A DNA stretch of 64,000 nucleotides from Gammaproteobacteria bacterium (lineage in GTDB: Bacteria; Pseudomonadota; Gammaproteobacteria; UBA4575): assembly GCA_965243395.1 (NCBI GenBank), contig CBDEUS010000002.1, positions 107,444 to 171,443 on the forward strand. Reading direction: 5' to 3'. The notes under the pieces were generated by a model that worked only from the letters and a program-made list of their open reading frames with translations, was not told the DNA's origin and did no database searches. The position numbers were made by a program, and so were the translations under genes. Positions 28,369 through 52,667 of the stretch are shown here, piece after piece (the stretch's first letter is position 1; every line of letters begins with the position of its first letter).

Positions 28369-29151
28369 CTATACCCAAGTGCTATTCAAGGTATCCCTAA
28401 AATAGTTATTTAAACCCTCAGCTTCAGCCTCAGAGCTTTTTTGAGCAAATTTTGTGTCCTCTAATCGATTTAATTCAGATTCAATAAACTCATTTAGTAC
28501 TGTAATCTTTTCTGAAGTATCTTTCTCAAATCCAGATTTTTTTCGCTCTAGCAAGTTATTTATGGCACTAAGAAGCTTATTGTCATCAACTAACTTTTCT
28601 ATTAGTTTGGAAAATTCAGTGGGCACCACGCCATAATCATTTTCTATCCATTGCACTGCTAATAATGGGCGAAGAACATAAAAATATTTTTTTAAACGAA
28701 CTTGTTCTTTCTGCAAATGCTCTTTATATGTTCTTTTAGCCATACTTAAATAATGATAGGCGCATGAAACTGGTGAAAAACTTTTTGGGAGTAAGTTTTG
28801 AAACCCATCAGAAAATTTTTCCTTATCTTTATAGACAATAGGAGACCCTATCCACTCAATCAAAGGTGGATTAGATTTTCGTAACAATCCGAGTGCCTTT
28901 CTCAGATCCCAACCATTTATATCAAGCAAATCATCTATAGGTAATTCGATCACATCTCTTTTGTGTTCAAGATCAATAGATAGATACCACTCAGGTGGAT
29001 GTATATAAATAAAACGTACGTCAAAATCACTATCTTTAGATGCAAACCCCCACGCTCGACTACCCGATTCACAGGCATACAAAACTTGAACATTATATTC
29101 ATCTTCAATTTCATCAAGCTTTTGAAGGATCTCTTCTTTTCTTTCTATCAT
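28369..29151 (-). CDS. Pol-beta-superfamily nucleotidyltransferase (RtcB-associated RlaP-like family)
   Basis: GS...D.D motif in CESGSRAWGFASKDSDFDVRFIY; ~260 aa; operonic with rtcB. Confidence 0.5.
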   Translation of the reverse strand: MIERKEEILQKLDEIEDEYNVQVLYACESGSRAWGFASKDSDFDVRFIYIHPPEWYLSIDLEHKRDVIELPIDDLLDINGWDLRKALGLLRKSNPPLIEWIGSPIVYKDKEKFSDGFQNLLPKSFSPVSCAYHYLSMAKRTYKEHLQKEQVRLKKYFYVLRPLLAVQWIENDYGVVPTEFSKLIEKLVDDNKLLSAINNLLERKKSGFEKDTSEKITVLNEFIESELNRLEDTKFAQKSSEAEAEGLNNYFRDTLNSTWV

Positions 29152-29159
29152 AGGTATAT

Positions 29160-29459
29160 CTAGAAAAAAGTTTTAACAGTTAAAACTATTCCTAAGATTG
29201 GTAGCAATAAAAGCCAAATAATAAATATAGTGGCAATTAATATATTAGCTAAATACGAAGACTCCACTCCTTCGTCTTCCCAATCTTCATCTGCACAAAT
29301 TACAGATACAAAATCTGAATTAAACTCAACATTAGAATGTTTATTATCAATTGCGATATCAATCGCATCTTTTAGTAACATTAAACCATCCTTATTGCCT
29401 GCAATATTATCTTCATATCTTTCACTGTAAATTTTTACCCAAGCTGTTTCATTATACAT
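29160..29459 (-). CDS. hypothetical protein with C-terminal membrane anchor
   Basis: 99 aa, acidic N-terminal part, single C-terminal TM; between the nucleotidyltransferase and rtcB. Confidence 0.4.
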   Translation of the reverse strand: MYNETAWVKIYSERYEDNIAGNKDGLMLLKDAIDIAIDNKHSNVEFNSDFVSVICADEDWEDEGVESSYLANILIATIFIIWLLLLPILGIVLTVKTFF

Positions 29460-29473
29460 TCAACTACTCCTAA

Positions 29474-30670
29474 CTATCCTTTTACACATACAACTTGACG
29501 CAAAGTGTGTTCAACGCTTACTAAATCATTTTGGTTTTCCATCACCACATCAATATCTTTATATGCGCCAGGAATTTCATCTAACACACCTTTGTCTTTA
29601 CGACATTCAACACCAGCCGTTTGCGCTTCAATATCTTCTTCATTGAAATGGCGTTTTGCTTTACCACGACTCATACGTCGACCTGCACCATGCGAACATG
29701 AACTAAATGATTCAGGGTTACCTTTGCCACGAACAATGTAAGATTTAGCGCCCATACTACCCGGAATAATTCCAAGCTCATCCACACCAGCACGAATCGC
29801 ACCTTTGCGTGTAATGTAAACATTTTCACCAAAATGGTTTTCCATAGACACATAATTATGATGACAATTGATGGCTTCTTTAGTGATACCAAATTTCGGT
29901 AACACTTTTTTTAATGCATCAATTATCAAGCGCATCATTTCTTTGCGATTTTCCATTGCGTAATCTTGAGCCCAGTTCACTGCATTTACATAGTCATCAA
30001 AGTGCTCTGCCCCTTCAGTAAAATATGCTAAATCTTTATCTGGCAAATTATGAATATGCTTTTGCATATCTTTTTGTGCTAATCGAATAAAGAATTGGCC
30101 AATAATATTCCCTACTCCACGGCTACCCGAATGAAGCATAATCCATACATCATTATTTTCATCTAAACAGATTTCAATAAAATGATTCCCACCACCAAGT
30201 GTGCCTAGTTGACGCACCCAAGTTTGATAAGGCTTTTTCTGCATCTTTAAAAGTTTGGGGTGTTTTTCTAGTAAGCGATCTAAACCGTCAGATAAAGGTC
30301 GTATAGTTGAATTGCGAGCTTTATCTGACTTATGCATATCAAAACCAACAGGTATTGCAACTTCAATAGCAGTACGCACTTTGCGTAAGTTATCTGGAAG
30401 ATCATTAGCATTCATTGAAAGACGCAAAGCATTCATTCCACAACCAATGTCTACACCAACCGCAGCAGGAATAATTGCACCTTTACATGGAATTACCGAA
30501 CCCACAGTCGCACCTTTACCAAAGTGCACATCCGGCATCGCCGCAATATGACTATGGATAAAAGGCAACTGTGATAGGTTGCATAGTTGCTGGTAGGCTT
30601 CGTGCTCTATGTCATCAGTATAGATTTTTACTCGCACATTACCTTTGGTAATGACTTTTTTAATTGGCAT
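29474..30670 (-). CDS. rtcB: RNA-splicing ligase RtcB
   Basis: 398 aa with RtcB metal/GTP-binding His motifs (HNYVSMENHFGENVYITRKGA, GSMGAKSYIV, SCSHGAGR). Confidence 0.85.
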   Translation of the reverse strand: MPIKKVITKGNVRVKIYTDDIEHEAYQQLCNLSQLPFIHSHIAAMPDVHFGKGATVGSVIPCKGAIIPAAVGVDIGCGMNALRLSMNANDLPDNLRKVRTAIEVAIPVGFDMHKSDKARNSTIRPLSDGLDRLLEKHPKLLKMQKKPYQTWVRQLGTLGGGNHFIEICLDENNDVWIMLHSGSRGVGNIIGQFFIRLAQKDMQKHIHNLPDKDLAYFTEGAEHFDDYVNAVNWAQDYAMENRKEMMRLIIDALKKVLPKFGITKEAINCHHNYVSMENHFGENVYITRKGAIRAGVDELGIIPGSMGAKSYIVRGKGNPESFSSCSHGAGRRMSRGKAKRHFNEEDIEAQTAGVECRKDKGVLDEIPGAYKDIDVVMENQNDLVSVEHTLRQVVCVKG

Positions 30671-30718
30671 ATGTCACCCTAATTAATCTCTAAAATATTC
30701 ATTTCTATTAGAACCATC

Positions 30719-30884
30719 ATGTCGCTTTTTCTTCAAGCAACAATTCTTGAAATCTACGCCCTGATCCACATACACATGGATCATTCCGGCCGAACTTCTC
30801 GCTAAGTTCTTTATTGCCATGAACGATTCTATTTCCTCGTTTAACGTTTGTTTCTGATGGGAATCCTTTACGACGTTTACTCAT
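30719..30884 (-). pseudogene. small SEC-C-motif-like ORF, apparently frameshifted
   Basis: minus strand: [55 protein letters not shown]; the +1 frame after CGSGRR reads [13 protein letters not shown], completing CxCGSG...K.CC only with a frameshift. Confidence 0.25.
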
Positions 30885-30950
30885 ACGCTCAAAAGGATTG
30901 ATCCTTATTTTTAAATTTACACATGTTGCACCTCACATTACTAAACTAAA

Positions 30951-31337
30951 TCAGTTGTATTTTTTGCGATAGTTACTGGTAAAAGGTTGCGCAACAATTT
31001 GATAATCATCTTGATAGCGTATCCTTCCAATTTCCTCACATTTAATCATATCTACAGCAATACCTTTATTTTGTATTACAGAAAAGAGCTTCCACATAAC
31101 GCGTATATGCTCTTGTGCACTAGGTTTAAACCAACACAGGCAGCGATAGTTACCGGGTATCTTCAAAATAGGAGGCACAATTAAATTTCTATCAATCCAT
31201 CTAAACACATATTGAACTTCTTCATATTCATAATCAGTGAATGAATTGTTGTATTTTAGCTTGTACGCAAGATGTATTAGGCCTTGTTCATAACGTGACC
31301 TCCTGTCTTGGCACAGCCCAATAAATCGTAAGTACAT
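30951..31337 (-). CDS. hypothetical protein
   Basis: 128-aa ORF upstream of the SPFH gene. Confidence 0.4.
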   Translation of the reverse strand: MYLRFIGLCQDRRSRYEQGLIHLAYKLKYNNSFTDYEYEEVQYVFRWIDRNLIVPPILKIPGNYRCLCWFKPSAQEHIRVMWKLFSVIQNKGIAVDMIKCEEIGRIRYQDDYQIVAQPFTSNYRKKYN

Positions 31338-31426
31338 TTTTAATATCCATTTATATTATTTCTCAAATTTAATTAAATGACGCAGGCCCTCAAATAATAG
31401 AGGGCCTTTGTCAGTTTATACTCACG

Positions 31427-32575
31427 CTACCCATCAACTTTGATTTGTACCGTGTCTTTTAGGATGCCATCCAAACCTCCGAAGACAGTTAGTTTGTCTA
31501 CTTTGTCAGTGACTTTTTCCAACGTCTCCAACTCTTTCAAGCGCATCAAGGTTGGGTTGTCATCCATCAATTTCGCAGTGTTCAACAATGAACGTGTAGC
31601 TGCAGTTTCTTCACGTCTTTTAATGACATTTGCTTGCGCCACTTTTTCTGCTTGAACTACTTGGTTCAAGATATCTTTCATGTCGCCTGGCAAAATGACA
31701 TCTTTCACGCCAACGCTGCGAATTTCGATACCGTATTCAGATACGTTTGCTTTAACAGATTCGTAGACGTATTTGTCTAGTTCATCTTTAGTTACAAGCA
31801 ATGCATCCAAAGTGCGTGTACCAATTACCTGACGAAGTGCAAATTGCATTTCGCGGTAAATGTATCCAGCAAGGTCTACCAATTCATGACGCGCTTTAAT
31901 TGGGTCACGAATTTGATATTGAGCTGACAAGTTTGCACGTAGGCTAACTTTGTCTTTTGTCAAAACCTCTTGACCTTGCACTTCCATGCTTTGCATTCGC
32001 AAATCAACTTGTTCAACTATTACGTTGCGGTTGTATTTCCAGTATGCGTACAAGCCTGGTTGCAATGATTCTTTTAATTCACCATCCACAACCAATAGGC
32101 CAACATAGTTGTCTGCAACTTCTGCGATGTAAATTGAATTAATCAATTCACTTGGTACTTGTTTCGCACGTGTGTGCACAAACTGACCCACTTTATTTGC
32201 AGGCAATGCAAAATCTTCTGCAATATTTTGCACTTCAACTGTCATTTCAACTGGACCTTTCCAAAATAATTGGCGTGTACCAGGTGCTACAACAGTGCTC
32301 AATTGGCCACGTTGATAAACCAATCCAACTTCATATGCGTCGGTTTCAACAACTTGGAAGTATTTTGTTACTATCTCAGGTTGTTCTTTTACCAAGACAT
32401 CCACATATTTGTGGTTGAATTGCGCTTCCGTTACATCATAAATCTCGACTTGAATTCGGCCGAAAATATCGAAATATCGATATACGCCTGGTTCAAGCAC
32501 TTTTACAATGCTTCGGTTTTTCAAGTAAATTCCTCGCTCATGCTGCGCAATAACAATTCTTTTAAATCCGAACAT
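31427..32575 (-). CDS. SPFH/band-7 domain protein (soluble, no N-terminal TM)
   Basis: 382 aa; SPFH core then coiled-coil with DVILPGDMKDILNQVVQAEKVAQANVIKRREETAATR. Confidence 0.65.
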   Translation of the reverse strand: MFGFKRIVIAQHERGIYLKNRSIVKVLEPGVYRYFDIFGRIQVEIYDVTEAQFNHKYVDVLVKEQPEIVTKYFQVVETDAYEVGLVYQRGQLSTVVAPGTRQLFWKGPVEMTVEVQNIAEDFALPANKVGQFVHTRAKQVPSELINSIYIAEVADNYVGLLVVDGELKESLQPGLYAYWKYNRNVIVEQVDLRMQSMEVQGQEVLTKDKVSLRANLSAQYQIRDPIKARHELVDLAGYIYREMQFALRQVIGTRTLDALLVTKDELDKYVYESVKANVSEYGIEIRSVGVKDVILPGDMKDILNQVVQAEKVAQANVIKRREETAATRSLLNTAKLMDDNPTLMRLKELETLEKVTDKVDKLTVFGGLDGILKDTVQIKVDG

Positions 32576-32724
32576 AATTACTCCTTATTAAATAAAGTTT
32601 CGGGAAATGCTCCACATATAAATTGCGGGTAAACTCCTGTTGTAGTAACGGGTCTAAAATCTTTCGCATGTCATTGCGATACCCCAACTATCGCTTTGAA
32701 CATGTTTCAGTCTCTAGACTGGTT

Positions 32725-32740
32725 ATCACAAGCTTGTGAT
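32725..32740. promoter_or_regulatory. 16-bp perfect palindrome ATCACAAGCTTGTGAT upstream of the SPFH gene
   Basis: self-complementary 16-mer ~150 nt upstream of the SPFH start codon. Confidence 0.3.
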
Positions 32741-32836
32741 CACGCAGGCAATCTACATGTTGCGACATAAAAAACTCTCAACCGTAGTTGAGCTATTTGA
32801 AATGTCGCGGGAACATTTCCCTGGTTAGTGTTTTCA

Positions 32837-32895
32837 CACAAAATGCGGATTCGAACCGCAGGCTTTCGCCATTACCAATGAACAACGTTTAAAGT
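32837..32895 (-). other. tRNA-like remnant (T-arm TGCGG-ATTCGAA-CCGCA) without a foldable anticodon arm
   Basis: clear T-arm; downstream sequence does not form anticodon or D arms. Confidence 0.25.
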
Positions 32896-32897
32896 TG

Positions 32898-32969
32898 TCG
32901 AAAGAACAGGAATCGAACCTGCAACATTTCCGTTATCAGCGGAATGCTCTCCCTTTGAGCTATCTTTCA
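32898..32969 (-). tRNA. tRNA-Ile (anticodon GAU), CCA not encoded
   Basis: minus-strand cloverleaf: T-arm ACAGG-AATCGAA-CCTGC, anticodon arm TTCCG/TTATCAG/CGGAA (anticodon GAT), D-arm GCTC...GAGC. Confidence 0.55.
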
Positions 32970-33193
32970 CTGGTGTATCGGACCACTTACAACTTTGTAT
33001 ACACATTGCAATCACCTTTCGGCTTAGCTTTTGTGCACAGGTCTGAATTCAAGAATCAGATCCGCTAAGTAAATAAATGTCTCTCAATACTCATGAACTC
33101 AATGTTTATAAAACATCGAATTACAATTCTTTAAATACAGGTGACCTGCCCCATTGCAGGCCACCATTTTTCACGCCCCCTTTCTCCTAAAAT

Positions 33194-33760
33194 TTAACGT
33201 CGCTCTTTAGGACATTGTGTTTTCAAGAACGCCATTTGGTCTGCCAAAATTTTGCGGTTAGATAAAATCAATCCTTCTGCATAATTTGGCTCATATGGAA
33301 TTCCTAATAATGAAATTCCTATTCTTTCTGCCTCACTAGGCATTAAGCTATCTTTACGTGCATTACATGCACGGCATGCTGTAACCACATTCATCCATGT
33401 GTTTTTCCCACCACGTGATAGTGGAATCACATGATCGCGCGTTAAGCGATTTCGAGAATATTGATCACCGCAATACATGCACATGTAATCATCACGTCGA
33501 AACAATCTTGCATTTGTCAGTGCAGGCACTTCACGAATGTGGTCGTCTGATCGCATCACACCATGTGTTGCAACAATACTGTTCACATCAATAAATGAAC
33601 GAGTTCTTGTTCTGCGATTTACACCACCATGAATACGAAAAGAATTTGAACCCATTTCGTAAACAACTTGTTCTCGTGCATACACTAATGCTGCATATTC
33701 CCAGTTCATCCATTCAACTGGACGCCCAGCTACGTCTAAACGCAAAATTAAATTTTCCAT
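33194..33760 (-). CDS. HNH endonuclease (free-standing, within tRNA array)
   Basis: CMYCGDQYSRNRLTRDHVIPLSRGGKNTWMNVVTACRACNARK = HNH C-x2-C...H...N...C-x2-C motif. Confidence 0.8.
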   Translation of the reverse strand: MENLILRLDVAGRPVEWMNWEYAALVYAREQVVYEMGSNSFRIHGGVNRRTRTRSFIDVNSIVATHGVMRSDDHIREVPALTNARLFRRDDYMCMYCGDQYSRNRLTRDHVIPLSRGGKNTWMNVVTACRACNARKDSLMPSEAERIGISLLGIPYEPNYAEGLILSNRKILADQMAFLKTQCPKERR

Positions 33761-33820
33761 TTAACTTTTCTCTTTTATAAAGTTACTGTTTAACAATTTG
33801 GATGATTGAAGAGTTTAATT

Positions 33821-33897
33821 TGGTACGCAGCCCCAGATTTGAACTGGGAATCAAGTAGGTTTGAGCTACTCAGGTCTTCCAATTGCCTCAGCTGCGC
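33821..33897 (-). tRNA. class-I (77 nt) tRNA with Leu anticodon CAA
   Basis: TGG-T-acceptor ACGCAGC, T-arm CCCAG-ATTTGAA-CTGGG, 5-nt variable loop, anticodon arm AGTAG/GTTTGAG/CTACT (anticodon CAA, U33 A37), D-loop with GG, A73. Confidence 0.6.
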
Positions 33898-33909
33898 AAA
33901 AATTTAATT

Positions 33910-33986
33910 TGGTATCCCTGGCAAGATTCGAACTTGCAACATTCTGGTTTTAAGTCAGATGCGTCTTCCGGTTGCGCCACAGGGAC
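33910..33986 (-). tRNA. class-I (77 nt) tRNA with Leu anticodon UAA
   Basis: T-arm GCAAG-ATTCGAA-CTTGC, 5-nt variable loop, anticodon arm TCTGG/TTTTAAG/TCAGA (anticodon TAA), A73. Confidence 0.6.
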
Positions 33987-33997
33987 GTAATGTAATT

Positions 33998-34076
33998 TGG
34001 TAGCCACCCTCGGATTTGAACCGAGATGCACCATGTTCTAAGCATGGTAGGTATGCCAATTCCCGTCAGATGGCCA
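33998..34076 (-). tRNA. class-I (79 nt) tRNA with Leu anticodon UAG
   Basis: T-arm CTCGG-ATTTGAA-CCGAG, 5-nt variable loop, anticodon arm CCATG/TTCTAAG/CATGG (anticodon TAG); acceptor closes with two G-U pairs. Confidence 0.55.
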
Positions 34077-34118
34077 AAATTTTTATTTTTATAATTTAGT
34101 TATACATAAATTATGATT

Positions 34119-34193
34119 TGGTACCCCTAGTAAGATTCGAACTCACATCAACTGATTTAGAAGATCAGTGCTTTTCCAATTAAGCTATAGAGG
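34119..34193 (-). tRNA. tRNA-Arg (UCU)
   Basis: T-arm GTAAG-ATTCGAA-CTCAC, anticodon arm CTGAT/TTAGAAG/ATCAG. Confidence 0.65.
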
Positions 34194-34217
34194 TAAAAAA
34201 CTAATTGAATTATTTTT

Positions 34218-34313
34218 GGTACCCCAACCAAGATTCGAACTTGGATCTACCACTAATCTGGTGCGTGAATCACGGGATATAAATCCGCTGCTTTACCGTT
34301 AAGCTATTGGGGC
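34218..34313 (-). tRNA. 96-nt tRNA-like gene with intact acceptor, T and D arms but no canonical anticodon arm
   Basis: acceptor ACCCCAA/TTGGGGC, T-arm CCAAG-ATTCGAA-CTTGG, D-arm GCTT-TACCGTT-AAGC; 61 nt between T and D arms with only a CGTGA-A-TCACG mini-hairpin; best weak fold gives anticodon UAU. Confidence 0.4.
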
Positions 34314-34322
34314 AAAATTTTT

Positions 34323-34396
34323 TGGACACTCCGCTCAGAATTGAACTGAGTCCTCAAGGGTTGCAACCTTGCGTCTTGCCGATCGACCACGGAGTG
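34323..34396 (-). tRNA. tRNA-Cys (GCA)
   Basis: T-arm CTCAG-AATTGAA-CTGAG, anticodon arm CAAGG/GTTGCAA/CCTTG, U73 discriminator. Confidence 0.7.
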
Positions 34397-34472
34397 TTGG
34401 CACATCCGGAAAGATTTGAACTTTCATCTTTGGGTTTGGAGGCCAATGTTCTGCCAATTGAACTACAGATGC
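34397..34472 (-). tRNA. tRNA-Trp (CCA)
   Basis: T-arm GAAAG-ATTTGAA-CTTTC, anticodon loop TTTGGAG (anticodon CCA), D-arm GTTC-TGCCAATT-GAAC. Confidence 0.65.
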
Positions 34473-34474
34473 TC

Positions 34475-34550
34475 TGGCTGGGAGTCCTGGACTCGAACCA
34501 AGATCTCAAGAGTCAAAGTCTTGCGTCTTAACCAGTTAGACGAATTCCCA
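34475..34550 (-). tRNA. tRNA-Gln (UUG)
   Basis: T-arm CCTGG-ACTCGAA-CCAAG, anticodon arm CAAGA/GTCAAAG/TCTTG. Confidence 0.7.
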
Positions 34551-34559
34551 TTTTTGTTT

Positions 34560-34635
34560 TGGCGCGGTTGGAAAGACTCAAACTTTCATCTTCGACTTTC
34601 GTAGAGTCGTGCTTTATCCGATTAAGCTACAACCG
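34560..34635 (-). tRNA. tRNA-Arg (ACG)
   Basis: T-arm GAAAG-ACTCAAA-CTTTC, anticodon arm CGACT/TTCGTAG/AGTCG, acceptor GCGGTTG/CAACCGC. Confidence 0.7.
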
Positions 34636-34644
34636 CAAAAACTT

Positions 34645-34720
34645 TGGTAGCCCGAATCCGATTCGAACGGATAACTTTCGCTTTGTAAGAACGACACTCT
34701 GCCAATTGAGTTATCGGGCT
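34645..34720 (-). tRNA. tRNA-Val (UAC)
   Basis: T-arm ATCCG-ATTCGAA-CGGAT, anticodon loop TTGTAAG, acceptor AGCCCGA/TCGGGCT. Confidence 0.65.
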
Positions 34721-34728
34721 AAAATTTT

Positions 34729-34800
34729 TGGTAGTTACGGTTAGAATCGAACTAACAAGTCCAGGGTTATGAGCCCTAGCCGAAGACCACTTCCGTAACT
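34729..34800 (-). tRNA. tRNA-Met (CAU), initiator-like anticodon stem, shortened D-arm
   Basis: RNA anticodon arm TAGGG-CTCATAA-CCCTG (GGG/CCC stem as in initiators); only 12 nt between anticodon arm and acceptor (4-bp stem, 4-nt loop); total 72 nt. Confidence 0.5.
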
Positions 34801-34808
34801 AAAGTATT

Positions 34809-34882
34809 TGGTGGATCCAGTAGGAGTCGAACCTACCTCTGCGGGTTAAAAGCCCGCTGCACAACCGCTATGCCATAGATCC
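34809..34882 (-). tRNA. tRNA-Lys (UUU)
   Basis: T-arm GTAGG-AGTCGAA-CCTAC, anticodon arm GCGGG/TTAAAAG/CCCGC. Confidence 0.7.
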
Positions 34883-34883
34883 T

Positions 34884-34959
34884 TGGCACGCCTGAAAGGA
34901 GTTGAACCTTTATCTCACTGGTTCGAAGCCAGTGGCTCTTCCAATTAAGCTACAGACGT
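34884..34959 (-). tRNA. tRNA-Arg (UCG)
   Basis: T-arm AAAGG-AGTTGAA-CCTTT, anticodon arm ACTGG/TTCGAAG/CCAGT. Confidence 0.65.
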
Positions 34960-34961
34960 AT

Positions 34962-35052
34962 TGGCGGAGAAGAACAGATTCGAACTGTTGAATGAAAAAT
35001 TTCCATCCCTCCTTTAGCAAAGGAGTGCTTTAAACCACTCAGCCACTTCTCC
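34962..35052 (-). tRNA. tRNA-Ser (GCU), class II
   Basis: 91 nt; T-arm AACAG-ATTCGAA-CTGTT, 19-nt variable arm, anticodon arm CTCCT/TTAGCAA/AGGAG. Confidence 0.7.
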
Positions 35053-35112
35053 AATTTATAATTTGCAGCGCTTCGCGATATTTAATTTGCGAGTAATACC
35101 CACTCGCAAGCG

Positions 35113-35188
35113 TGGGGTGAACTACCGGACTCGAACCGGTATCTACCAGATTCACGTTCTGGGGCTTTGCCATTAAGCTAAGCTCACC
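35113..35188 (-). tRNA. tRNA-His (GUG) with encoded G-1 and C73
   Basis: T-arm ACCGG-ACTCGAA-CCGGT, anticodon arm CCAGA/TTCACGT/TCTGG (anticodon GTG, position 33 = C), C73, extra 5' G at 35188. Confidence 0.65.
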
Positions 35189-35199
35189 ATAATTATTTT

Positions 35200-35291
35200 T
35201 GGCGGAAGGCGGAGGGCACGATCCCCACCAACTAAAAAGCCAGCCACCAGTTTTCAAGACTGGGACACCCCCACTGGGTGAATCACCTTCC
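35200..35291 (-). tRNA. tRNA-Ser (UGA), class II, non-canonical T-loop
   Basis: 92 nt; anticodon arm CCAGT/TTTCAAG/ACTGG; T-loop reads GCACGAT rather than ATTCGAA. Confidence 0.5.
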
Positions 35292-35316
35292 TTATATATG
35301 TAAATTTGGAGCGGAT

Positions 35317-35391
35317 AATCGGATTCGAACCGATATTTATGGTTTGGAAGACCATCACTCTGCCAATTGAGTTATACCCGCAGATTTGGTC
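35317..35391 (-). tRNA. tRNA-Gly (UCC)
   Basis: T-arm ATCGG-ATTCGAA-CCGAT, anticodon arm ATGGT/TTGGAAG/ACCAT. Confidence 0.7.
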
Positions 35392-35396
35392 TGAGT

Positions 35397-35474
35397 GGCT
35401 GGATTCGAACCAACGACCTCTCGCTTCCAAGGCGAGTACTCTGCCCAGGCTGAGCTACACTCAGAGAATTAATT
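35397..35474 (-). tRNA. tRNA-Pro (UGG)
   Basis: T-arm GCTGG-ATTCGAA-CCAAC, anticodon arm CTCGC/TTCCAAG/GCGAG, acceptor CTGAGTG/CACTCAG. Confidence 0.65.
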
Positions 35475-35491
35475 AAATATAAAAAATTATT

Positions 35492-35567
35492 TGGTGCATC
35501 GAGTTGGACTTGAACCAACGACCACACGATTATCGGTCGTGCGCTCTACCAACTGAGCTATCGATGC
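35492..35567 (-). tRNA. tRNA-Ile (GAU)
   Basis: canonical D-arm GCTCTACCAACTGAGC, T-arm GTTGG-ACTTGAA-CCAAC, anticodon arm CACGA/TTATCGG/TCGTG (anticodon GAT, position 33 = C), acceptor GCATCGA/TCGATGC. Confidence 0.7.
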
Positions 35568-35568
35568 T

Positions 35569-35644
35569 TGGTGTTCCTGACCAGAATTGAACTGGCATCT
35601 CGAGTTTGAAAGACTCGTGACCTCACCATTAGTCGACAGGAACT
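35569..35644 (-). tRNA. tRNA-Glu (UUC)
   Basis: anticodon arm CGAGT/TTGAAAG/ACTCG, acceptor GTTCCTG/CAGGAAC. Confidence 0.7.
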
Positions 35645-35657
35645 AATAAAATATTTT

Positions 35658-35733
35658 TGGCGGACCCGATCGGACTCAAACCGACATCCCCTTTATCGAC
35701 AGTAAAGTGCTTTATCAATTAAGCTACGAATCC
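35658..35733 (-). tRNA. tRNA-Asp (GUC)
   Basis: anticodon arm CTTTA/TCGACAG/TAAAG, T-arm ATCGG-ACTCAAA-CCGAC. Confidence 0.65.
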
Positions 35734-36088
35734 AACTTTTGTTTAAAGGTTGAGACTATGCCTTTAAAAATCACTCTTTTGTTGAAGTACCTAACGCATT
35801 GCTGTGCGATAGTTGCCAACGTGTCCACATTACCCTGGTTGCTCCAGCGATTATGTTAGTGATCATGACTGCTTTTTTTAAAGTGTAGCGATTCACTTGT
35901 CGCGTTAATCTATTCAGCTATTCACTTACCGAGAACCTTGCCAGGCTCTAAACGGAGGCTATCCGAACGTGCAATGAAGTAACTAAAGTTCTTTGGCTTG
36001 CGACCGCAGAATCTTCCATGTTCCCAAGTGGGCATGGACTTAAGTCATTTTCAATTAACACCGAGACGCGTCTTTGCGTTTCACCGTA
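35734..36088 (-). other. 355-nt non-coding spacer inside the tRNA array; candidate structured or stable RNA
   Basis: no minus-strand ORF, no recognisable tRNA; short palindromes AGACGCGTCT and TGATCA. Confidence 0.25.
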
Positions 36089-36165
36089 TGGTGATCTATG
36101 TGGGAGTCGAACCCACGACCTATTGATTCTAAGTCAATCGCTCTACCAATCTGAGCTAAAAGATC
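36089..36165 (-). tRNA. class-I (77 nt) tRNA with Leu anticodon UAG (second copy)
   Basis: T-arm GTGGG-AGTCGAA-CCCAC, 5-nt variable loop, anticodon arm ATTGA/TTCTAAG/TCAAT (anticodon TAG), canonical D-arm, A73. Confidence 0.6.
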
Positions 36166-36605
36166 AGGTACTACTAAGACGTGCACGTCTCAGTTGCTTC
36201 ATTATTTTTTGAATAACGAAATACAACACGCCTTTTGTCTTTCCTCTGCCGAGTACTTAACCGAATATTCGGATCATGGCTTCCACCCATTTCCCTAATA
36301 ATCTGCACAACCGCACTTGTCTGCAAAACTCGTACTATGTTGTACTACCTGTTATCTCTCGTAGTACGCAATCTAGTATCACGGGTTACAGCACTACCTG
36401 TATCTTTCTCACGACCCGTATTCCCAAGTAAACCTGGTACGTCAATCGTGGTACTTCCGCGTATTGCTTGGCTACTATTGCCGATTGAATTACGACAACA
36501 TGGAGACCAGGCTTGCTTGGTTTGACCTACTTTGAAAAGTGGGCGAAATACCGTAGTCGTATTCCTTTCCTATCGTTGCCGATAGTTATCGTGCCAAGCC
36601 ACATA
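36166..36605 (-). other. 440-nt non-coding spacer inside the tRNA array; candidate ncRNA
   Basis: no minus-strand ORF; 14-bp perfect palindrome AGACGTGCACGTCT at 36176-36189; + strand ORFs here are antisense and implausible. Confidence 0.25.
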
Positions 36606-36681
36606 TTTGGTGGAGGATCACGGATTTGAACCGTGCGCCTTCTGTTTGCAATACAGACGCTCTGCCAACTGAGCTAATCCC
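36606..36681 (-). tRNA. tRNA-Ala (UGC) with G3:U70
   Basis: anticodon arm TCTGT/TTGCAAT/ACAGA; acceptor strands GGGGGAT/ATCCTCC give the G3:U70 Ala identity pair. Confidence 0.75.
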
Positions 36682-36690
36682 CCAAACTTA

Positions 36691-36765
36691 TTTGGCTGCG
36701 ACGGTTGGACTCGAACCAACATTGCTTCGCTTAACAGACGAATGTTCTACCATTGAACTACATCG
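36691..36765 (-). tRNA. tRNA-Asn (GUU)
   Basis: anticodon arm TTCGC/TTAACAG/ACGAA, T-arm GTTGG-ACTCGAA-CCAAC. Confidence 0.65.
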
Positions 36766-36775
36766 CAATTATATT

Positions 36776-36852
36776 TGGTGCATCAGGATGGATTCGAACC
36801 ACCATCGCGTCGGGCTTCAACCGACCGCTCTACCCATTGGAGCTACCGATGC
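36776..36852 (-). tRNA. tRNA-Phe (GAA); sequence differs from the att-site Phe fragments
   Basis: anticodon arm GTCGG/GCTTCAA/CCGAC, D-arm GCTCTACCCATTGGAGC; its T-arm and acceptor differ from the 14005/47417 repeats. Confidence 0.7.
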
Positions 36853-36860
36853 AAAAATAA

Positions 36861-36945
36861 TTGGTGGAGAGAGATGGATTCGAACCACCACGCTAATAAT
36901 TAGCACTGGGTTACAGCCAGCGTGTCTCACCAATGACTGTCTCTC
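36861..36945 (-). tRNA. tRNA-Tyr (GUA), class II
   Basis: 85 nt; 15-nt variable hairpin ACGCTAATAATTAGC; anticodon arm ACTGG/GTTACAG/CCAGC. Confidence 0.65.
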
Positions 36946-36959
36946 CTAAAGTTAAAACT

Positions 36960-37035
36960 GGAGCTGGTGATAGGCGTCGAACCTACAACCTACTGCTTAC
37001 AAAGCAGTTGCTCTGCCATTTGAGCTACACCAGCA
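36960..37035 (-). tRNA. tRNA-Thr (UGU)
   Basis: anticodon arm ACTGC/TTACAAA/GCAGT, acceptor GCTGGTG/CACCAGC. Confidence 0.7.
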
Positions 37036-37039
37036 AAAA

Positions 37040-37075
37040 ATATGGGACAGTCGCACATGCGCACAACTCAACTTA
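37040..37075 (-). promoter_or_regulatory. candidate sigma-70 promoter for the tRNA array
   Basis: minus strand reads TTGTGC-N18-TATTTT about 7 nt upstream of the first tRNA 5' end; weak match. Confidence 0.25.
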
Positions 37076-37161
37076 GGAGTTGGGCATAATTTAAAAATTA
37101 AATTACGCACTGCCCCGCCTACTTCAATCATCCAAATTGTTAAAGAGCTACTGCCAGGACT

Positions 37162-37204
37162 AAAAAACCCCGGAAGGCGAACCTAACCGGGGTTTTATTT
37201 TGAT
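37162..37204. terminator. bidirectional rho-independent terminator hairpin
   Basis: AAAAAACCCCGGAAGGCGAACCTAACCGGGGTTTTATTTT: 8-bp GC-rich stem flanked by an A-run and a T-run; separates gene 37495-38148 from the tRNA array. Confidence 0.6.
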
Positions 37205-37494
37205 TCCGGAAGGCTCGCAACGCGCACCCTCCGAATTAATTTGGAAGGTACTACGTAATTGGGTCCTCTAAGGTGGCCCCAATAAAATTATTTGTGCCGA
37301 GATTCGATATCTCATGCACAGCAACACACCACAAAAAACACGACGGCTTTAATAACCGCTGCATTAGTTGCGCTGAAAAACTAGTTGTATATGTACTTCT
37401 ATTCATAGTGCGCGAAAGTCTAATGATATGGATTTTAAAGTCAAGTAATATTTTACTAAGTAAAGTGTGAATTTACGCCCAATTATCGGCCAAA

Positions 37495-38148
37495 TTAATC
37501 CTCAAGGGCTGACAAAAAAGAAATCATTGCTTTACGTTGTTTTTCATTTAAAGAGAGTGATGCAGAAATTATTTCTTGAATGTCCGTTAATTGTTTTTGA
37601 AATTCTTTATTGTTCAATTCTTTAGGTGCTTCATCCAACCAACCTACTGGTTTTTTTGCTGCAACTTCAATTCCTCTTGCAAACTCATCACTCATGCTTG
37701 GAATAAATGGTGTTTTGTAATGTTGTTGAAATAATTCCCATGATACTCCTGCTGATTCACATTCTTTTTTAGAACAAACCTTATTACCAGACTTTCCACA
37801 TAGGGTCTTAAAGTTTGTAAATCTAACGATTTGAAGAAATGGGTCTAAGTTTTTTACAGGAGCAGTGCCAAATAATAACCAATTGGTGGAATATCCAGTA
37901 ACTTTGCTAATACCTTCAATGATTTTTAAATTTGGGTTTTGTGGAGCCGACGTTTCGTAAAGAGAAAGAAGTTGTTTTGACACCTTTAGTCTTCTTTTTT
38001 TCAATAATTGCATCATCTCACTTGGATCAATGCCATTAACTACACGTGCAAAACGCACCCTTGATGAAACTGTAGCTAATTCATTTTTTCGTTTTGAACT
38101 ACTAGTTGATTTTTTGGAGACACGACGTTTAGATTTATTTTTTACCAT
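37495..38148 (-). CDS. hypothetical protein with strongly basic N-terminus
   Basis: 217 aa; N-terminal MVKNKSKRRVSKKSTSSSKRKNE; no recognisable domain. Confidence 0.45.
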   Translation of the reverse strand: MVKNKSKRRVSKKSTSSSKRKNELATVSSRVRFARVVNGIDPSEMMQLLKKRRLKVSKQLLSLYETSAPQNPNLKIIEGISKVTGYSTNWLLFGTAPVKNLDPFLQIVRFTNFKTLCGKSGNKVCSKKECESAGVSWELFQQHYKTPFIPSMSDEFARGIEVAAKKPVGWLDEAPKELNNKEFQKQLTDIQEIISASLSLNEKQRKAMISFLSALED

Positions 38149-52592: not shown

Positions 52593-52667
52593 TGGAGGCC
52601 AGGGTCGGAGTTGAACCGACGTATTACACCTTGCTGGGGGTATGCATCACCACTCTGCCACCTGGCC
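52593..52667 (-). pseudogene. degenerate tRNA-like gene (Cys-like: anticodon GCA, U73) with broken anticodon stem and A33
   Basis: acceptor GGCCAGG/CCTGGCC, T-arm GTCGG-AGTTGAA-CCGAC, D-arm GCA-TCACCACTC-TGC; no 5-bp anticodon stem; loop CAGCAAG lacks U33; overlaps the ImmA stop by 21 nt. Confidence 0.4.

What the first reader, a model, noticed from the sequence alone, without database searches (positions are those of the whole stretch)
33821..34076. Four class-I-sized tRNAs carry Leu anticodons (CAA, UAA, UAG, UAG); no class-II tRNA-Leu in the array
The tRNAs at 33821-33897, 33910-33986, 33998-34076 and 36089-36165 are 77-79 nt with 4-5-nt variable loops. Their anticodon loops read CUCAAAC, CUUAAAA, CUUAGAA and CUUAGAA, i.e. 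anticodons CAA, UAA and UAG, all for Leu codons. Bacterial tRNA-Leu is normally class II with a long variable arm; the Ser and Tyr genes in this same array do keep long variable arms. All four have A73, which is compatible with Leu identity. They could be unusual short-arm Leu isoacceptors, or tRNAs of another identity that decode Leu codons.
Basis: seen in the sequence. Interest (0 to 1): 0.75.

Follow-up and report, generated by a model that had tools for sequence, protein, structure and literature searches.

The report
Short-arm leucine tRNAs, mobile tRNA array
Three of the four genes are real leucine tRNAs that lack the usual long extra arm, a design that is common in phage and mobile tRNA arrays and native to Actinobacteria, and the fourth is an unrelated tRNA embedded in a giant GOLLD RNA, so the finding is real but not new in kind.

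Summary
Four 77-78-nt tRNA genes on the minus strand have 5-nt variable loops, Leu anticodons (CAA, UAA, UAG, UAG), A73 and encoded CCA. No class-II Leu gene exists in the 28-gene array, while Ser and Tyr keep long arms.

The four genes are two different things.

**The tandem trio (33821-34075).** These have the Leu-specific D arm of class-II tRNALeu, plus A15:U48 and A20a. Those are the elements E. coli-type LeuRS uses, and LeuRS does not need the long arm. A pattern for this design hits at least 110 viral contigs and at least 119 bacterial loci:
- phage arrays, including vibriophage KVP40, where the genes are annotated tRNA-Leu;
- mobile bacterial arrays;
- single chromosomal genes in Actinomycetota.

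A73 and U48 are invariant in 181/181 family members and the stems covary. A 2019 paper on Mycobacterium tRNA clusters already remarked on a short-loop tRNALeu(UAG).

**The fourth gene (36089-36165).** It lies in the linker of a GOLLD RNA and has a generic class-I body (G15:C48, 4-bp D stem). Its amino-acid identity is unknown.

The array sits on a roughly 8.7-kb island (HNH, SPFH, RtcB) in a marine gammaproteobacterium.

By-catch: a long-arm tRNA(UAU) whose extra arm carries a GAU-type loop.

The parts
33821..33897 (-). tRNA-Leu(CAA), 77 nt with CCA, 5-nt variable loop, G1.U72, A73, Leu-type D arm (U8 G9, AGG/CCU 3-bp stem, C13.A22, A14 A15 UU G18 G19 A A20a G A), U48
   Evidence: ARAGORN. Scores 75.6 bits with the short-arm-Leu model R1, the 2nd best hit in the array. 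Identical in the related island L001.
33910..33986 (-). tRNA-Leu(UAA), 77 nt with CCA, 5-nt variable loop AUGUU, A73, Leu-type D arm (GCG/CGC), A31.C39 mismatch at the bottom of the anticodon stem
   Evidence: ARAGORN. Rfam tRNA 56.2 bits. R1 84.1 bits, the top hit. Identical in L001.
33998..34075 (-). tRNA-Leu(UAG) copy 1, 78 nt, a divergent member. It has one extra nucleotide at the 5' side of the D stem, so only 2-3 D-stem pairs form. D loop GAAUUGGCAUA, U48, A73.
   Evidence: ARAGORN. R1 58.1 bits with a 1-nt insertion. It differs from the L001 copy at 9-10 positions, but all stem changes keep pairing: 29:41 A-U to G-C, 6:67 U.G to C-G, 30:40 U-A to U.G. The same 78-nt D-arm variant occurs in viral contig L029.
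36089..36165 (-). tRNA with anticodon UAG, copy 2, inside the GOLLD linker. Generic class-I body: U8 A9, 4-bp D stem GCUC/GAGC, G15:C48, variable loop AGGUC, A73, CCA, U6.U67 mismatch.
   Evidence: ARAGORN. Rfam tRNA 71.1 bits. R1 only 52.7 bits, in the middle of the non-Leu tRNAs. Its nearest relative in the array is Ile(GAU) at 74% identity. Identical in L001.
35747..36234 (-). GOLLD RNA (Rfam RF02032 span). The 5' hairpin is at 36234-36170, the linker holds the tRNA, and the conserved 3' domain runs to 35747. The non-coding stretch 36235-36607 upstream is probably the variable 5' domain.
   Evidence: Rfam 153.5 bits against a gathering score of 150, E = 7e-43, covering model positions 1-416 with the tRNA as an insertion in the linker. 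About 96% identical in L001, whereas array spacers are about 46% identical.
32897..37034 (-). tRNA array of 28 genes. Their anticodons together can read all 61 sense codons. Nearly all genes encode CCA.
   Evidence: ARAGORN found 25 genes and Rfam added 3. Between the two islands the tRNAs differ at 0-4 positions each, against 301 differences in 560 spacer columns.
34217..34313 (-). 97-nt tRNA with anticodon UAU (AUA codon) and a roughly 27-nt variable region that contains a hairpin with loop CAGAUUA
   Evidence: Rfam tRNA 55.3 bits with a 24-nt insertion in the variable region. Fold. Identical in L001. Relatives.
33194..33760 (-). HNH endonuclease gene inside the array, between Leu(CAA) and the last Ile tRNA
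   Evidence: Pfam HNH_5/HNH, E = 1.7e-16. The identical protein is encoded on the L001 contig.
29474..32575 (-). Island cargo next to the array: the SPFH/Band_7 protein (31427-32575) and the RtcB RNA ligase (29474-30670). The RlaP nucleotidyltransferase at 28369-29151 lies just outside the stretch shared with L001.
   Evidence: Pfam. BLAST against L001 shows the shared segment runs from about 29478 to 38115 at 92-93% identity with unrelated flanks.
37495..38148 (-). 217-aa ORF with no family match, at the upstream edge of the island
   Evidence: No Pfam or NCBIfam hit. Present at the same position in L001.

Best explanation
The window carries a horizontally mobile island of about 8.7 kb in a marine gammaproteobacterium. 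Its core is a 28-gene tRNA array that can decode all sense codons.

**The three tandem genes (CAA, UAA, UAG).** These are genuine tRNALeu isoacceptors of a widespread 'short-arm' class. Each is the class-II tRNALeu core with a 5-nt variable loop in place of the long arm. The core comprises U8-A14, a 3-bp D stem, an unpaired 13.22, A15, G18G19 in the Leu register, A20a and A73.

Bacterial LeuRS reads A73 and the D/T-loop tertiary core, including the A15:U48 pair. It does not read the anticodon or the long arm. The host LeuRS should therefore charge them with leucine (inferred), and they would read UUG, UUR and CUN.

**The fourth gene.** This is a separate entity: a tRNA module in the linker of a GOLLD RNA, which forms a 14-mer nanocage. 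It has a generic class-I body and lacks A15:U48 and A20a. It is strongly conserved, so it is functional in some sense. Whether it is cut out and leucylated, or stays tethered to GOLLD, is not known.

**Array as a whole (inferred).** It acts as a phage-derived back-up or supplementary tRNA set. RtcB sits beside it in both copies of the island, which fits a role in surviving tRNA damage.
For: **Structure and coordinates:**

**The D arm is Leu-specific.**
- The motif U8 G9, 3-bp stem, N13, AAYYGG-N-A-[G/U]-A occurs in 2 of 1351 non-Leu class-I tRNAs from the fetched loci.
- It occurs in 0 of 147 Ser and 0 of 66 Tyr tRNAs.
- It is present in class-II Leu, 7-17 of 63 depending on stringency.
- It is present in E. 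coli tRNALeu(CAG), whose sequence I verified in 5426 of 5426 E. coli genomes. The E. coli D arm is UG GCG G AAUUGGUAG A CGC. The window's are UG AGG C AAUUGGAAG A CCU and UG GCG C AACCGGAAG A CGC.

**The family is large and constrained.**
- There are 192 distinct sequences, and 181 form clean cloverleaves.
- Features the pattern did not impose are near-invariant: A73 in 181/181, U48 in 181/181, C13 in 175/181.
- On 80 sequences, 99.1% of cells pair, against 35-45% when partners are slid. 19 of 20 pairs change on both sides.

**Family-specific model.** Built without the window's sequences, it scores UAA at 84.1 bits, CAA at 75.6 and UAG-1 at 58.1. UAG-2 scores 52.7, among the ordinary tRNAs.

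**Purifying selection.** Between two islands that are 92-93% identical, spacers show 301 differences in 560 columns. CAA and UAG-2 have 0 differences. UAG-1 changes only in ways that keep pairing.

**LeuRS rules.** PMC9976931 states that A73, A15-U48, G18G19 and A20a are essential, that the long arm's sequence and fold are irrelevant, and that variants lacking the arm still charge.

**Precedents.**
- KVP40 annotates such genes as tRNA-Leu.
- Mycobacterium HGT tRNA clusters have a short-loop tRNALeu(UAG), plus GOLLD with an internal tRNA and an HNH gene (PMC6582537).
- In M. tuberculosis only tRNALeu-2, -3 and -5 are named as having long loops (PMC11541572).
- Single short-arm Leu genes sit among housekeeping genes in Actinomycetota.

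**GOLLD:**. tRNAs in the GOLLD linker are reported in PMC12286853.

**Host:** the best named relatives of UrtA are marine Gammaproteobacteria.
Against: - Nothing here measures expression, processing or aminoacylation.
- The general Rfam tRNA model did not report the CAA or UAG-1 genes even at E <= 10.
- UAG-1 has a weakened D stem and evolves faster than its neighbours, so it may be decaying.
- UAA has an A31.C39 mismatch.
- All three have G1.U72, which is seen in only about 25% of the family.
- LeuRS identity rules come from E. coli, Aquifex and M. tuberculosis, not from this host.
- The promoter and terminator scans give no excess over shuffles.
- The family survey is ascertained by a pattern I designed, so it says nothing about what fraction of phage Leu tRNAs are short. 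An array found independently (L244) has class-II Leu.
- For UAG-2 there is no positive evidence of Leu identity beyond A73 and elimination of the synthetases that read the anticodon.
Confidence: 0.8

Rival explanations
1. The short-arm genes are decaying pseudogenes or inert relics of a phage array, and are not used in translation.
For: UAG-1 has a disturbed D stem and 9-10 differences between the two islands. Rfam's general tRNA model misses CAA and UAG-1. In M. aubagnense the tRNA inside GOLLD was called a pseudo-tRNA and no expression was detected (PMC6582537).
Against: CAA and UAG-2 are identical, and UAA is identical or nearly so, between islands whose spacers are about half changed. Every stem change in UAG-1 keeps pairing, including one compensatory double change. 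The family shows near-perfect pairing with extensive covariation, and A73 and U48 are invariant. Native single-copy members sit in housekeeping regions of Actinomycetota chromosomes.
Confidence: 0.05
2. Some or all are tRNAs of another amino-acid identity that read Leu codons (sense-codon recoding or deliberate mistranslation). This applies mainly to the GOLLD-embedded UAG tRNA, whose body resembles Ile, Lys or Thr-type class-I tRNAs.
For: UAG-2 lacks A15:U48, A20a and the 3-bp D stem. It scores like non-Leu tRNAs with the Leu model, and its nearest relatives are Ile, Thr, Ala and Lys tRNAs. Other viral contigs carry generic-body tRNAs with anticodon UAG, one of them with G73, which is incompatible with LeuRS. 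There is precedent in yeast mitochondria, where tRNAThr(UAG) and tRNAAla(UAG) exist (PMC7609411).
Against: For the trio, every known LeuRS element is present and no identity element of another synthetase is evident: no G3.U70, no G73, no long arm for SerRS. For UAG-2, most other synthetases read the anticodon and would reject UAG, it has no G3.U70, and a second tRNA that decodes CUN as Leu stands in the same array.
Confidence: 0.12
3. The genes serve mainly outside decoding, for example as decoys or replacements aimed at tRNA-targeting toxins and anticodon nucleases. On this reading the long arm was lost because it is the feature such enzymes use to recognise the tRNA.
For: The array travels with the RtcB RNA ligase in both islands, and with RlaP in the window. 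Phage tRNAs that evade anticodon nucleases have been proposed (PMC10264068, listed). Some toxins use the long variable loop as a handle: MenT3 does so on tRNASer (PMC11541572). SLFN11 papers appeared in the list but I did not read them.
Against: No Leu-specific nuclease that depends on the variable arm is identified here. Ser and Tyr tRNAs in the same array keep their arms. Native actinobacterial short-arm Leu genes show that the design works as ordinary translation hardware.
Confidence: 0.1

Closest known systems
Short-variable-loop tRNALeu(UAG) in horizontally acquired tRNA clusters of Mycobacterium (Behra et al. 2019, PMC6582537), including the M. aubagnense 32-tRNA cluster with GOLLD and HNH
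   Same: It is a mobile multi-tRNA cluster with an HNH endonuclease gene inside, a GOLLD RNA with a tRNA predicted within it, a tRNAIle(UAU), and a cluster-encoded tRNALeu with a short variable loop.
   Different: The host is different (a marine gammaproteobacterium at about 36% GC, versus Actinomycetota at about 67% GC). Here three Leu isoacceptors are short. The GOLLD-internal tRNA here is a high-scoring tRNA (71 bits) rather than a called pseudo-tRNA. I could not compare sequences because the mycobacterial loci were not fetched.
Vibriophage KVP40 tRNA-Leu-1 and tRNA-Leu-2, and at least 110 IMG/VR viral contigs
   Same: They have the same 74+CCA architecture, the same D-arm motif, A73, U48 and C13, and they lie in phage tRNA arrays.
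   Different: Identity to the window's genes is 70-81%. They are phage-borne, not on a bacterial chromosomal island.
Native chromosomal short-arm tRNALeu(UAA/CAA) of Actinomycetota (for example Gleimia, Aestuariimicrobium, Nocardioides, Propionibacteriaceae; implied for M. tuberculosis tRNALeu-1 and -4)
   Same: The cloverleaf and the invariant A73, U48 and C13 are the same. Anticodons are UAA or CAA.
   Different: They are single genes in housekeeping neighbourhoods and do not encode CCA. They are presumably the organism's only decoders of UUR, which is an inference.
E. coli class-II tRNALeu and its engineered arm-less or minimalist variants (Asahara 1993/1998; Larkin 2002, as summarised in PMC9976931)
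   Same: The D arm and the identity set (A73, A15:U48, G18G19, A20a) are the same. The engineered arm-less variants are still leucylated.
   Different: Natural E. coli tRNALeu has a 16-nt variable arm and G13. The short-arm class has a 5-nt loop and C13.
Animal mitochondrial tRNALeu
   Same: It is a class-I-sized tRNALeu whose identity rests on A73 and A14 without a long arm.
   Different: The mitochondrial molecules have degenerate D and T loops and a dedicated LeuRS. The present genes keep canonical loops.
GOLLD RNA (RF02032; Weinberg 2009; cryo-EM 14-mer nanocage, PMC12286853)
   Same: It reaches the Rfam gathering score over the full model, lies in a tRNA island, and has a tRNA in the linker, as reported for some GOLLDs.
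   Different: The score is only just above threshold (153.5 against 150). Eleven other viral GOLLDs that I fetched score 155-326 bits and have no tRNA within the model span.

Membership tests
Bacterial tRNALeu (E. coli-type LeuRS identity set) | Discriminator A73 | tested here: met
   All four genes have A73. A73 is present in 181/181 family members.
Bacterial tRNALeu (E. coli-type LeuRS identity set) | A15:U48 tertiary pair, G18G19 in the Leu register, and A20a in the D loop | tested here: met
   Met for CAA, UAA and UAG-1 by direct reading of the sequences. Not met for the GOLLD-embedded UAG-2, which has G15:C48 and no 20a.
Bacterial tRNALeu (E. coli-type LeuRS identity set) | Long variable arm (class II). 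This is a hallmark of the family but is reported not to be an identity element in bacteria. | tested here: not met
   All four have 5-nt variable loops. PMC9976931 states that the arm is dispensable for E. coli LeuRS.
Bacterial tRNALeu (E. coli-type LeuRS identity set) | Actual leucylation by LeuRS | not testable with these tools
   This needs in vitro charging or acid-urea northern blots.
Short-arm tRNALeu class of phage and mobile arrays and Actinomycetota | 74-nt cloverleaf with U8 G9, a 3-bp D stem, C13, the AAYYGGNAGA D loop, a 5-nt variable loop ending in U48, and A73 | tested here: met
   CAA and UAA match the pattern exactly and are the top two hits of model R1. UAG-1 matches with a 1-nt insertion and G13 (58.1 bits). 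UAG-2 does not match (52.7 bits, indistinguishable from non-Leu tRNAs).
GOLLD RNA (RF02032) | Reaches the Rfam gathering score over the whole model, including the conserved 3' domain | tested here: met
   153.5 bits against 150, model positions 1-416, E = 7e-43.
GOLLD RNA (RF02032) | Assembly into a homo-oligomeric nanocage | not testable with these tools
   Known only from cryo-EM of GOLLD env-38 (PMC12286853).
Prokaryotic tRNA array unit (Tran et al. 2016: at least 20 tRNA genes at 2 or more per kb) | Gene number and density | tested here: met
   28 tRNA genes in 4.1 kb, 32897-37034. Definition from PMC4758250.

The most novel reading that the evidence does not exclude
Mobile tRNA arrays rebuild the variable region on purpose.

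- Leu tRNAs shed the long arm. That costs nothing for LeuRS, but it may remove a handle used by enzymes that target class-II tRNAs.
- The array's AUA decoder, tRNA(UAU), gains a variable arm. Its covarying 4-bp stem presents a near-invariant 7-nt loop, CAGAUUA, with G-A-U at the anticodon positions. This would be a second, tRNAIle(GAU)-like 'anticodon loop' that could recruit a host IleRS that otherwise rejects U34.
- The GOLLD-embedded UAG tRNA is not a leucine tRNA at all. It is a tethered module of the RNA cage.

Under this reading the window shows three different ways of uncoupling tRNA shape from tRNA identity.
Probability: 0.15. Interest if true: 0.8.

Novelty: new member of a known kind. 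Interest (0 to 1): 0.35.

Why it matters
Reviews still state that tRNALeu carries a long variable arm everywhere except in animal mitochondria (PMC9976931). The survey prompted by this finding shows otherwise. Arm-less tRNALeu is a large natural class: hundreds of phage and mobile-array genes, and native genes in Actinomycetota. The LeuRS identity elements are perfectly conserved across it.

- **For annotation.** A class-I-sized tRNA with a Leu anticodon and this D arm should be called Leu and should not be flagged as suspect.
- **For biology.** The class offers natural test cases for what the Leu variable arm is for. It also gives compact LeuRS substrates for engineering.

This particular locus is a clean example of a complete-set tRNA array with GOLLD, HNH and RtcB that moves between marine gammaproteobacteria. 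It adds no new principle about Leu tRNAs.

Tried and rejected
1. **Phage origin of the window.** Megablast of the array against INPHARED found nothing. Flanking genes are chromosomal: urea ABC transporter, NhaD, PPK2, PepX. The window is therefore a bacterial chromosome carrying an island, not a phage.

2. **A hidden variable arm or mis-parse.** Rejected on gene spacing, encoded CCA and model alignments.

3. **The 94-nt tRNA as the missing class-II Leu.** Rejected, because its anticodon is UAU.

4. **GOLLD homologues in the Leu-ascertained arrays.**
   - nhmmer with the window's GOLLD found only L001.
   - Rfam on 14 arrays found no GOLLD.
   - A GOLLD 3'-end pattern recovered 11 viral GOLLDs, none with an internal tRNA.
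   - So I could not test whether the UAG anticodon is conserved among GOLLD-embedded tRNAs.

5. **Relatives of the UAG-2 tRNA.** An exact pattern on its anticodon arm gave 0 viral hits. A looser pattern gave 9 contigs with unrelated generic tRNA(UAG) genes.

6. **Att-type direct repeats at the island ends.** None found.

7. **Promoter and terminator scan.** No excess over shuffles.

8. **The window's own contig in the protein-position index.** Not on record. The host is therefore inferred only from UrtA relatives.

9. **Morgado et al. 2020 on GOLLD in Mycobacterium arrays.** Not held in the library.

10. **tRNAscan-SE isotype models.** Not available. I substituted a custom covariance model.
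Full report
**1. The observation**

ARAGORN finds 26 tRNA genes in the window. Twenty-five of them lie on the minus strand between 32897 and 37034. Four have Leu anticodons:
- CAA at 33821-33897;
- UAA at 33910-33986;
- UAG at 33998-34075;
- UAG at 36089-36165.

The drawn cloverleaves show 7-bp acceptor stems, 5-nt variable loops, A73 and an encoded CCA. Lengths are 77, 77, 78 and 77 nt.

The three tandem genes are 12 and 11 nt apart, so no long arm can be hidden.

Rfam adds three tRNAs that ARAGORN missed: Ser(UGA), a CAU tRNA, and a 94-nt tRNA whose anticodon is UAU. None is a Leu tRNA. Ser(GCU), Ser(UGA) and Tyr keep long arms.

**2. Context**

The window is not a phage. It encodes a urea ABC transporter, NhaD, PPK2, a MATE pump, a histidine kinase and PepX. 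The best named relatives of UrtA are marine Gammaproteobacteria: Litoricola, Oleibacter, Ketobacter and MAGs.

An 822-kb metagenomic contig (L001) carries the same HNH protein. It shares with the window only the stretch from about 29478 to 38115, at 92-93% identity, with unrelated flanks. That stretch contains:
- a 217-aa ORF;
- five tRNAs;
- a large non-coding region;
- the rest of the array;
- an HNH endonuclease;
- one more tRNA;
- an SPFH/Band_7 protein;
- RtcB.

The array is therefore on a mobile island. Its 28 anticodons cover all 61 sense codons (read).

Between the two islands the spacers show 301 differences in 560 aligned columns. Most tRNAs differ at 0-4 positions, which indicates strong purifying selection on the tRNA genes.

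**3. The three tandem genes are tRNALeu without the arm**

Their region 8-26 has the architecture of class-II tRNALeu: U8 G9, a 3-bp D stem, an unpaired 13.22, then A14 A15 Y Y G18 G19 N A20a G A.

| tRNA | Positions 8-25 |
|---|---|
| E. coli tRNALeu(CAG) | UG GCG G AAUUGGUAG A CGC |
| Window CAA | UG AGG C AAUUGGAAG A CCU |
| Window UAA | UG GCG C AACCGGAAG A CGC |

I checked the E. coli sequence against 5426 E. coli genomes.

- 2 of 1351 non-Leu class-I tRNAs;
- 0 of 147 Ser;
- 0 of 66 Tyr;
- present in class-II Leu.

The 5-nt variable loops all end in U, which gives the A15:U48 pair.

According to the identity review (PMC9976931), E. coli LeuRS depends on A73, A15-U48, G18G19, A20a and the D/T-loop tertiary pairs. 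It does not depend on the anticodon or on the long arm, and variants without the arm remain substrates. All of these elements are present in the trio. Leucylation by a gammaproteobacterial LeuRS is therefore the expected outcome. This is inferred, not shown.

**4. They belong to a large family**

I searched for this pattern, which encodes class-I spacing, the Leu D loop and a Leu anticodon: TGNNNNAAYYGGNAGA-N9-CTYARA-N16-TTCRAAT.
- The window gives 2 hits against 0 expected.
- IMG/VR gives 110 viral contigs.

Of 192 distinct sequences, 181 fold into clean cloverleaves. Positions the pattern did not fix are near-invariant: A73 in 181/181, U48 in 181/181, C13 in 175/181. All four Leu anticodons of the YAR type occur.

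On 80 of the sequences, 99.1% of cells form pairs, against 35-45% for slid controls. Nineteen of 20 pairs show changes on both sides. Cloverleaf filtering inflates the first figure somewhat.

A covariance model built from those 80 sequences, none from the window, was run over the array with filters off:

| tRNA | Score (bits) |
|---|---|
| UAA | 84.1 |
| CAA | 75.6 |
| Val | 64.9 |
| UAG-1 | 58.1 |
| Arg | 57.9 |
| UAG-2 | 52.7 |
| Remaining tRNAs | 22-53 |

CAA and UAA are clear members.

UAG-1 is a divergent member. It has one extra nucleotide at the 5' side of the D stem, a variant also seen in viral contig L029. It differs from its L001 counterpart at 9-10 positions, but every stem change preserves pairing, including a compensatory A29-U41 to G-C.

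**5. Where the family lives**

- **Viral loci.** They are mostly arrays, with a median of 8 tRNAs per fetched stretch. One is vibriophage KVP40, whose GenBank record annotates the genes as tRNA-Leu-1 and tRNA-Leu-2.
- **Bacterial arrays.** 35 loci have at least 10 tRNAs. They come from Acidobacteriota, Planctomycetota, Nostoc, Calothrix, Tolypothrix, Clostridia and others.
- **Bacterial singletons.** 58 loci hold one or two tRNAs (the short-arm gene usually alone). Nearly all are from Actinomycetota, have anticodons UAA or CAA, and do not encode CCA.

The singletons sit among housekeeping genes:
- PolA, an ANTAR regulator, pyruvate kinase and Lgt in Gleimia;
- DivIC, DUF501 and Ppx in Aestuariimicrobium.

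They are therefore native.

Three papers fit this picture:
- A paper on M. tuberculosis tRNAs names only tRNALeu-2, -3 and -5 as having long variable loops (PMC11541572).
- Behra et al. 2019 (PMC6582537) explicitly noted that a cluster-encoded tRNALeu(UAG) in Mycobacterium 'has a short variable loop'. They described a 32-tRNA cluster with GOLLD, an internal tRNA, HNH and tRNAIle(UAU), which is the same module as here.
- A cyanobacterial survey tabulated Leu variable loops of 5-18 nt without comment (PMC6933170).

The phenomenon is thus on record, though only in passing.

**6. The fourth gene is something else**

Rfam places a GOLLD RNA at 35747-36234 (153.5 bits, gathering score 150, E about 1e-42). 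The alignment puts the tRNA in the linker, between the 5' hairpin and the conserved 3' domain. The 373 nt upstream, as far as tRNA-Ala, are non-coding, about 96% conserved in L001, and probably form GOLLD's variable 5' domain.

This tRNA has U8 A9, a 4-bp D stem, G15:C48 and an AGGUC variable loop. It lacks A20a.
- Within the array its nearest relative is Ile(GAU), at 74% identity.
- Elsewhere its nearest relatives are Thr, Ala, Lys and Arg tRNAs.

It scores 71 bits with the general tRNA model and is identical in both islands, so it is conserved. Its identity cannot be assigned. A73 and the UAG anticodon leave LeuRS as the least implausible synthetase, but two LeuRS elements are missing.

I could not find other GOLLDs with internal tRNAs for comparison.

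**7. Function of the whole island (inferred)**

A complete-set array with encoded CCA ends, an internal HNH gene and an adjacent RtcB ligase matches the phage-derived arrays described in Acidithiobacillus, Mycobacterium and cyanobacteria (PMC4758250, PMC6582537). In the window RlaP sits next to RtcB as well.

A back-up or supplementary tRNA supply under tRNA damage or translational stress is the most economical reading. Nothing here tests it.

**8. Verdict**

The interpretation 'short-arm Leu isoacceptors' is right for three genes and undecided for the fourth. The design is neither rare nor new. The locus is a new member of a known kind, and interest is moderate to low.

**9. By-catch**

The 97-nt tRNA at 34217-34313 has anticodon UAU and an extra arm.

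The same design recurs in eight unrelated loci that were fetched for other reasons. It has A73, a 4-bp variable-arm stem and a 7-nt loop. The loop is CAGAUUA in three of those eight (as in the window and L001); the other five read CAGAUCA, CAGAUUG, CCGAUUA, CUGAUAU and UGGACUA. G and A at loop positions 3-4 are invariant.

- One scan fixed the loop. It gave 116 clean cloverleaves, 89 distinct, with A73 in 115/116.
- The other fixed only the D arm. It gave 102 distinct sequences. The loop is CAGAUUA in 96 and CCGAUUA in 2, while the stem covaries: CCGC/GCGG, GCGC/GCGY, CCUC/GAGG, GCAC/GUGC and GCCC/GGGC.

The loop has G-A-U where an anticodon would be, and so resembles the tRNAIle(GAU) anticodon loop CUGAUAA. 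I found no description of this in the searchable literature. The allo-tRNA(UAU) of PMC5389517 has a different 8/4 or 9/3 fold and is Ser-like. An IleRS-recruiting mimic is a speculative but testable idea.

Noticed in passing
window 34217-34313 (-); also L010, L029, L039, L072, L075, L099, L113, L222 and >=120 viral contigs (L255-L397): This is a 89-97-nt tRNA with anticodon UAU (AUA codon), A73 and a variable arm. The arm has a covarying 4-bp stem that presents a near-invariant 7-nt loop, CAGAUUA. The loop has G-A-U at the anticodon positions, like the tRNAIle(GAU) loop. Most viral members also have a 1-nt 8/9 linker, a GACU-UGGU-AGUC D arm and a 7-bp anticodon stem. Among isolates it is annotated tRNA-Ile in Sinorhizobium phage Phosso and unannotated in Synechococcus phage S-SRM01. 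I found no published description. It may be an IleRS anticodon mimic, which is speculative.
   Followed up: partly
window 35747-36607 (-): A GOLLD RNA sits inside the tRNA array with a tRNA in its linker. The Rfam score is only just above the gathering threshold (153.5 against 150). The region is about 96% conserved in the second island.
   Followed up: partly
window 28369-30670 (-): The RtcB RNA ligase and an RlaP (RNA-repair nucleotidyltransferase) gene lie next to the tRNA island. RtcB is part of the segment shared with L001 and RlaP is not. L001 has a PcfJ-domain gene where the window has a 128-aa ORF.
   Followed up: partly
window 34729-34800 (-): This is the only CAU tRNA of the array. 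It has three G-C pairs at the bottom of the anticodon stem, which is initiator-like, but a paired 1:72 and an odd, short D arm. It scores weakly (30.8 bits, Rfam). Whether it is an initiator, an elongator or an Ile2 tRNA is unclear.
   Followed up: no
window 32844-32860 (-): An isolated T-arm-like hairpin, UGCGGUUCGAAUCCGCA followed by U-rich sequence, lies just beyond the last tRNA-Ile. It could be a tRNA fragment or a terminator. No matching repeat was found at the other end of the island.
   Followed up: partly
window 52593-52667 (-): ARAGORN calls a tRNA-like gene here with a 4-base anticodon (cagc). It lies about 4 kb from a P4-type integrase gene (47586-48881) and next to a radical-SAM gene.
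   Followed up: no
window 33821-33897 and 33998-34075 (-): The general Rfam tRNA model (RF00005) reports neither the CAA nor the first UAG gene, even at E <= 10 in a 551-nt search. ARAGORN and a family-specific model find both. Annotation pipelines that rely on that model may undercount this class.
   Followed up: partly
L079 2869-3272 (+) and L099 528-902 (-): Two viral contigs with large tRNA arrays also encode a full-length bacterial class-A RNase P RNA (196 and 176 bits).
   Followed up: no
L234, L236, L237, L240: Viral contigs that carry GOLLD also carry a tmRNA gene within about 1-2 kb of it (Rfam 70-78 bits).
   Followed up: no
L251 9594-9667 (-); L246-L254: Other viral contigs carry generic class-I tRNAs with anticodon UAG. 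One has G73, which is incompatible with LeuRS identity. This hints that not every phage 'tRNA-Leu(UAG)' accepts leucine.
   Followed up: no
L112-L225 singletons, e.g. L149 4763-4836, L171 6181-6254: Actinomycetota chromosomes carry single, highly conserved short-arm tRNALeu(UAA/CAA) genes among housekeeping genes. This contradicts the review statement that bacterial tRNALeu always has a long arm.
   Followed up: partly
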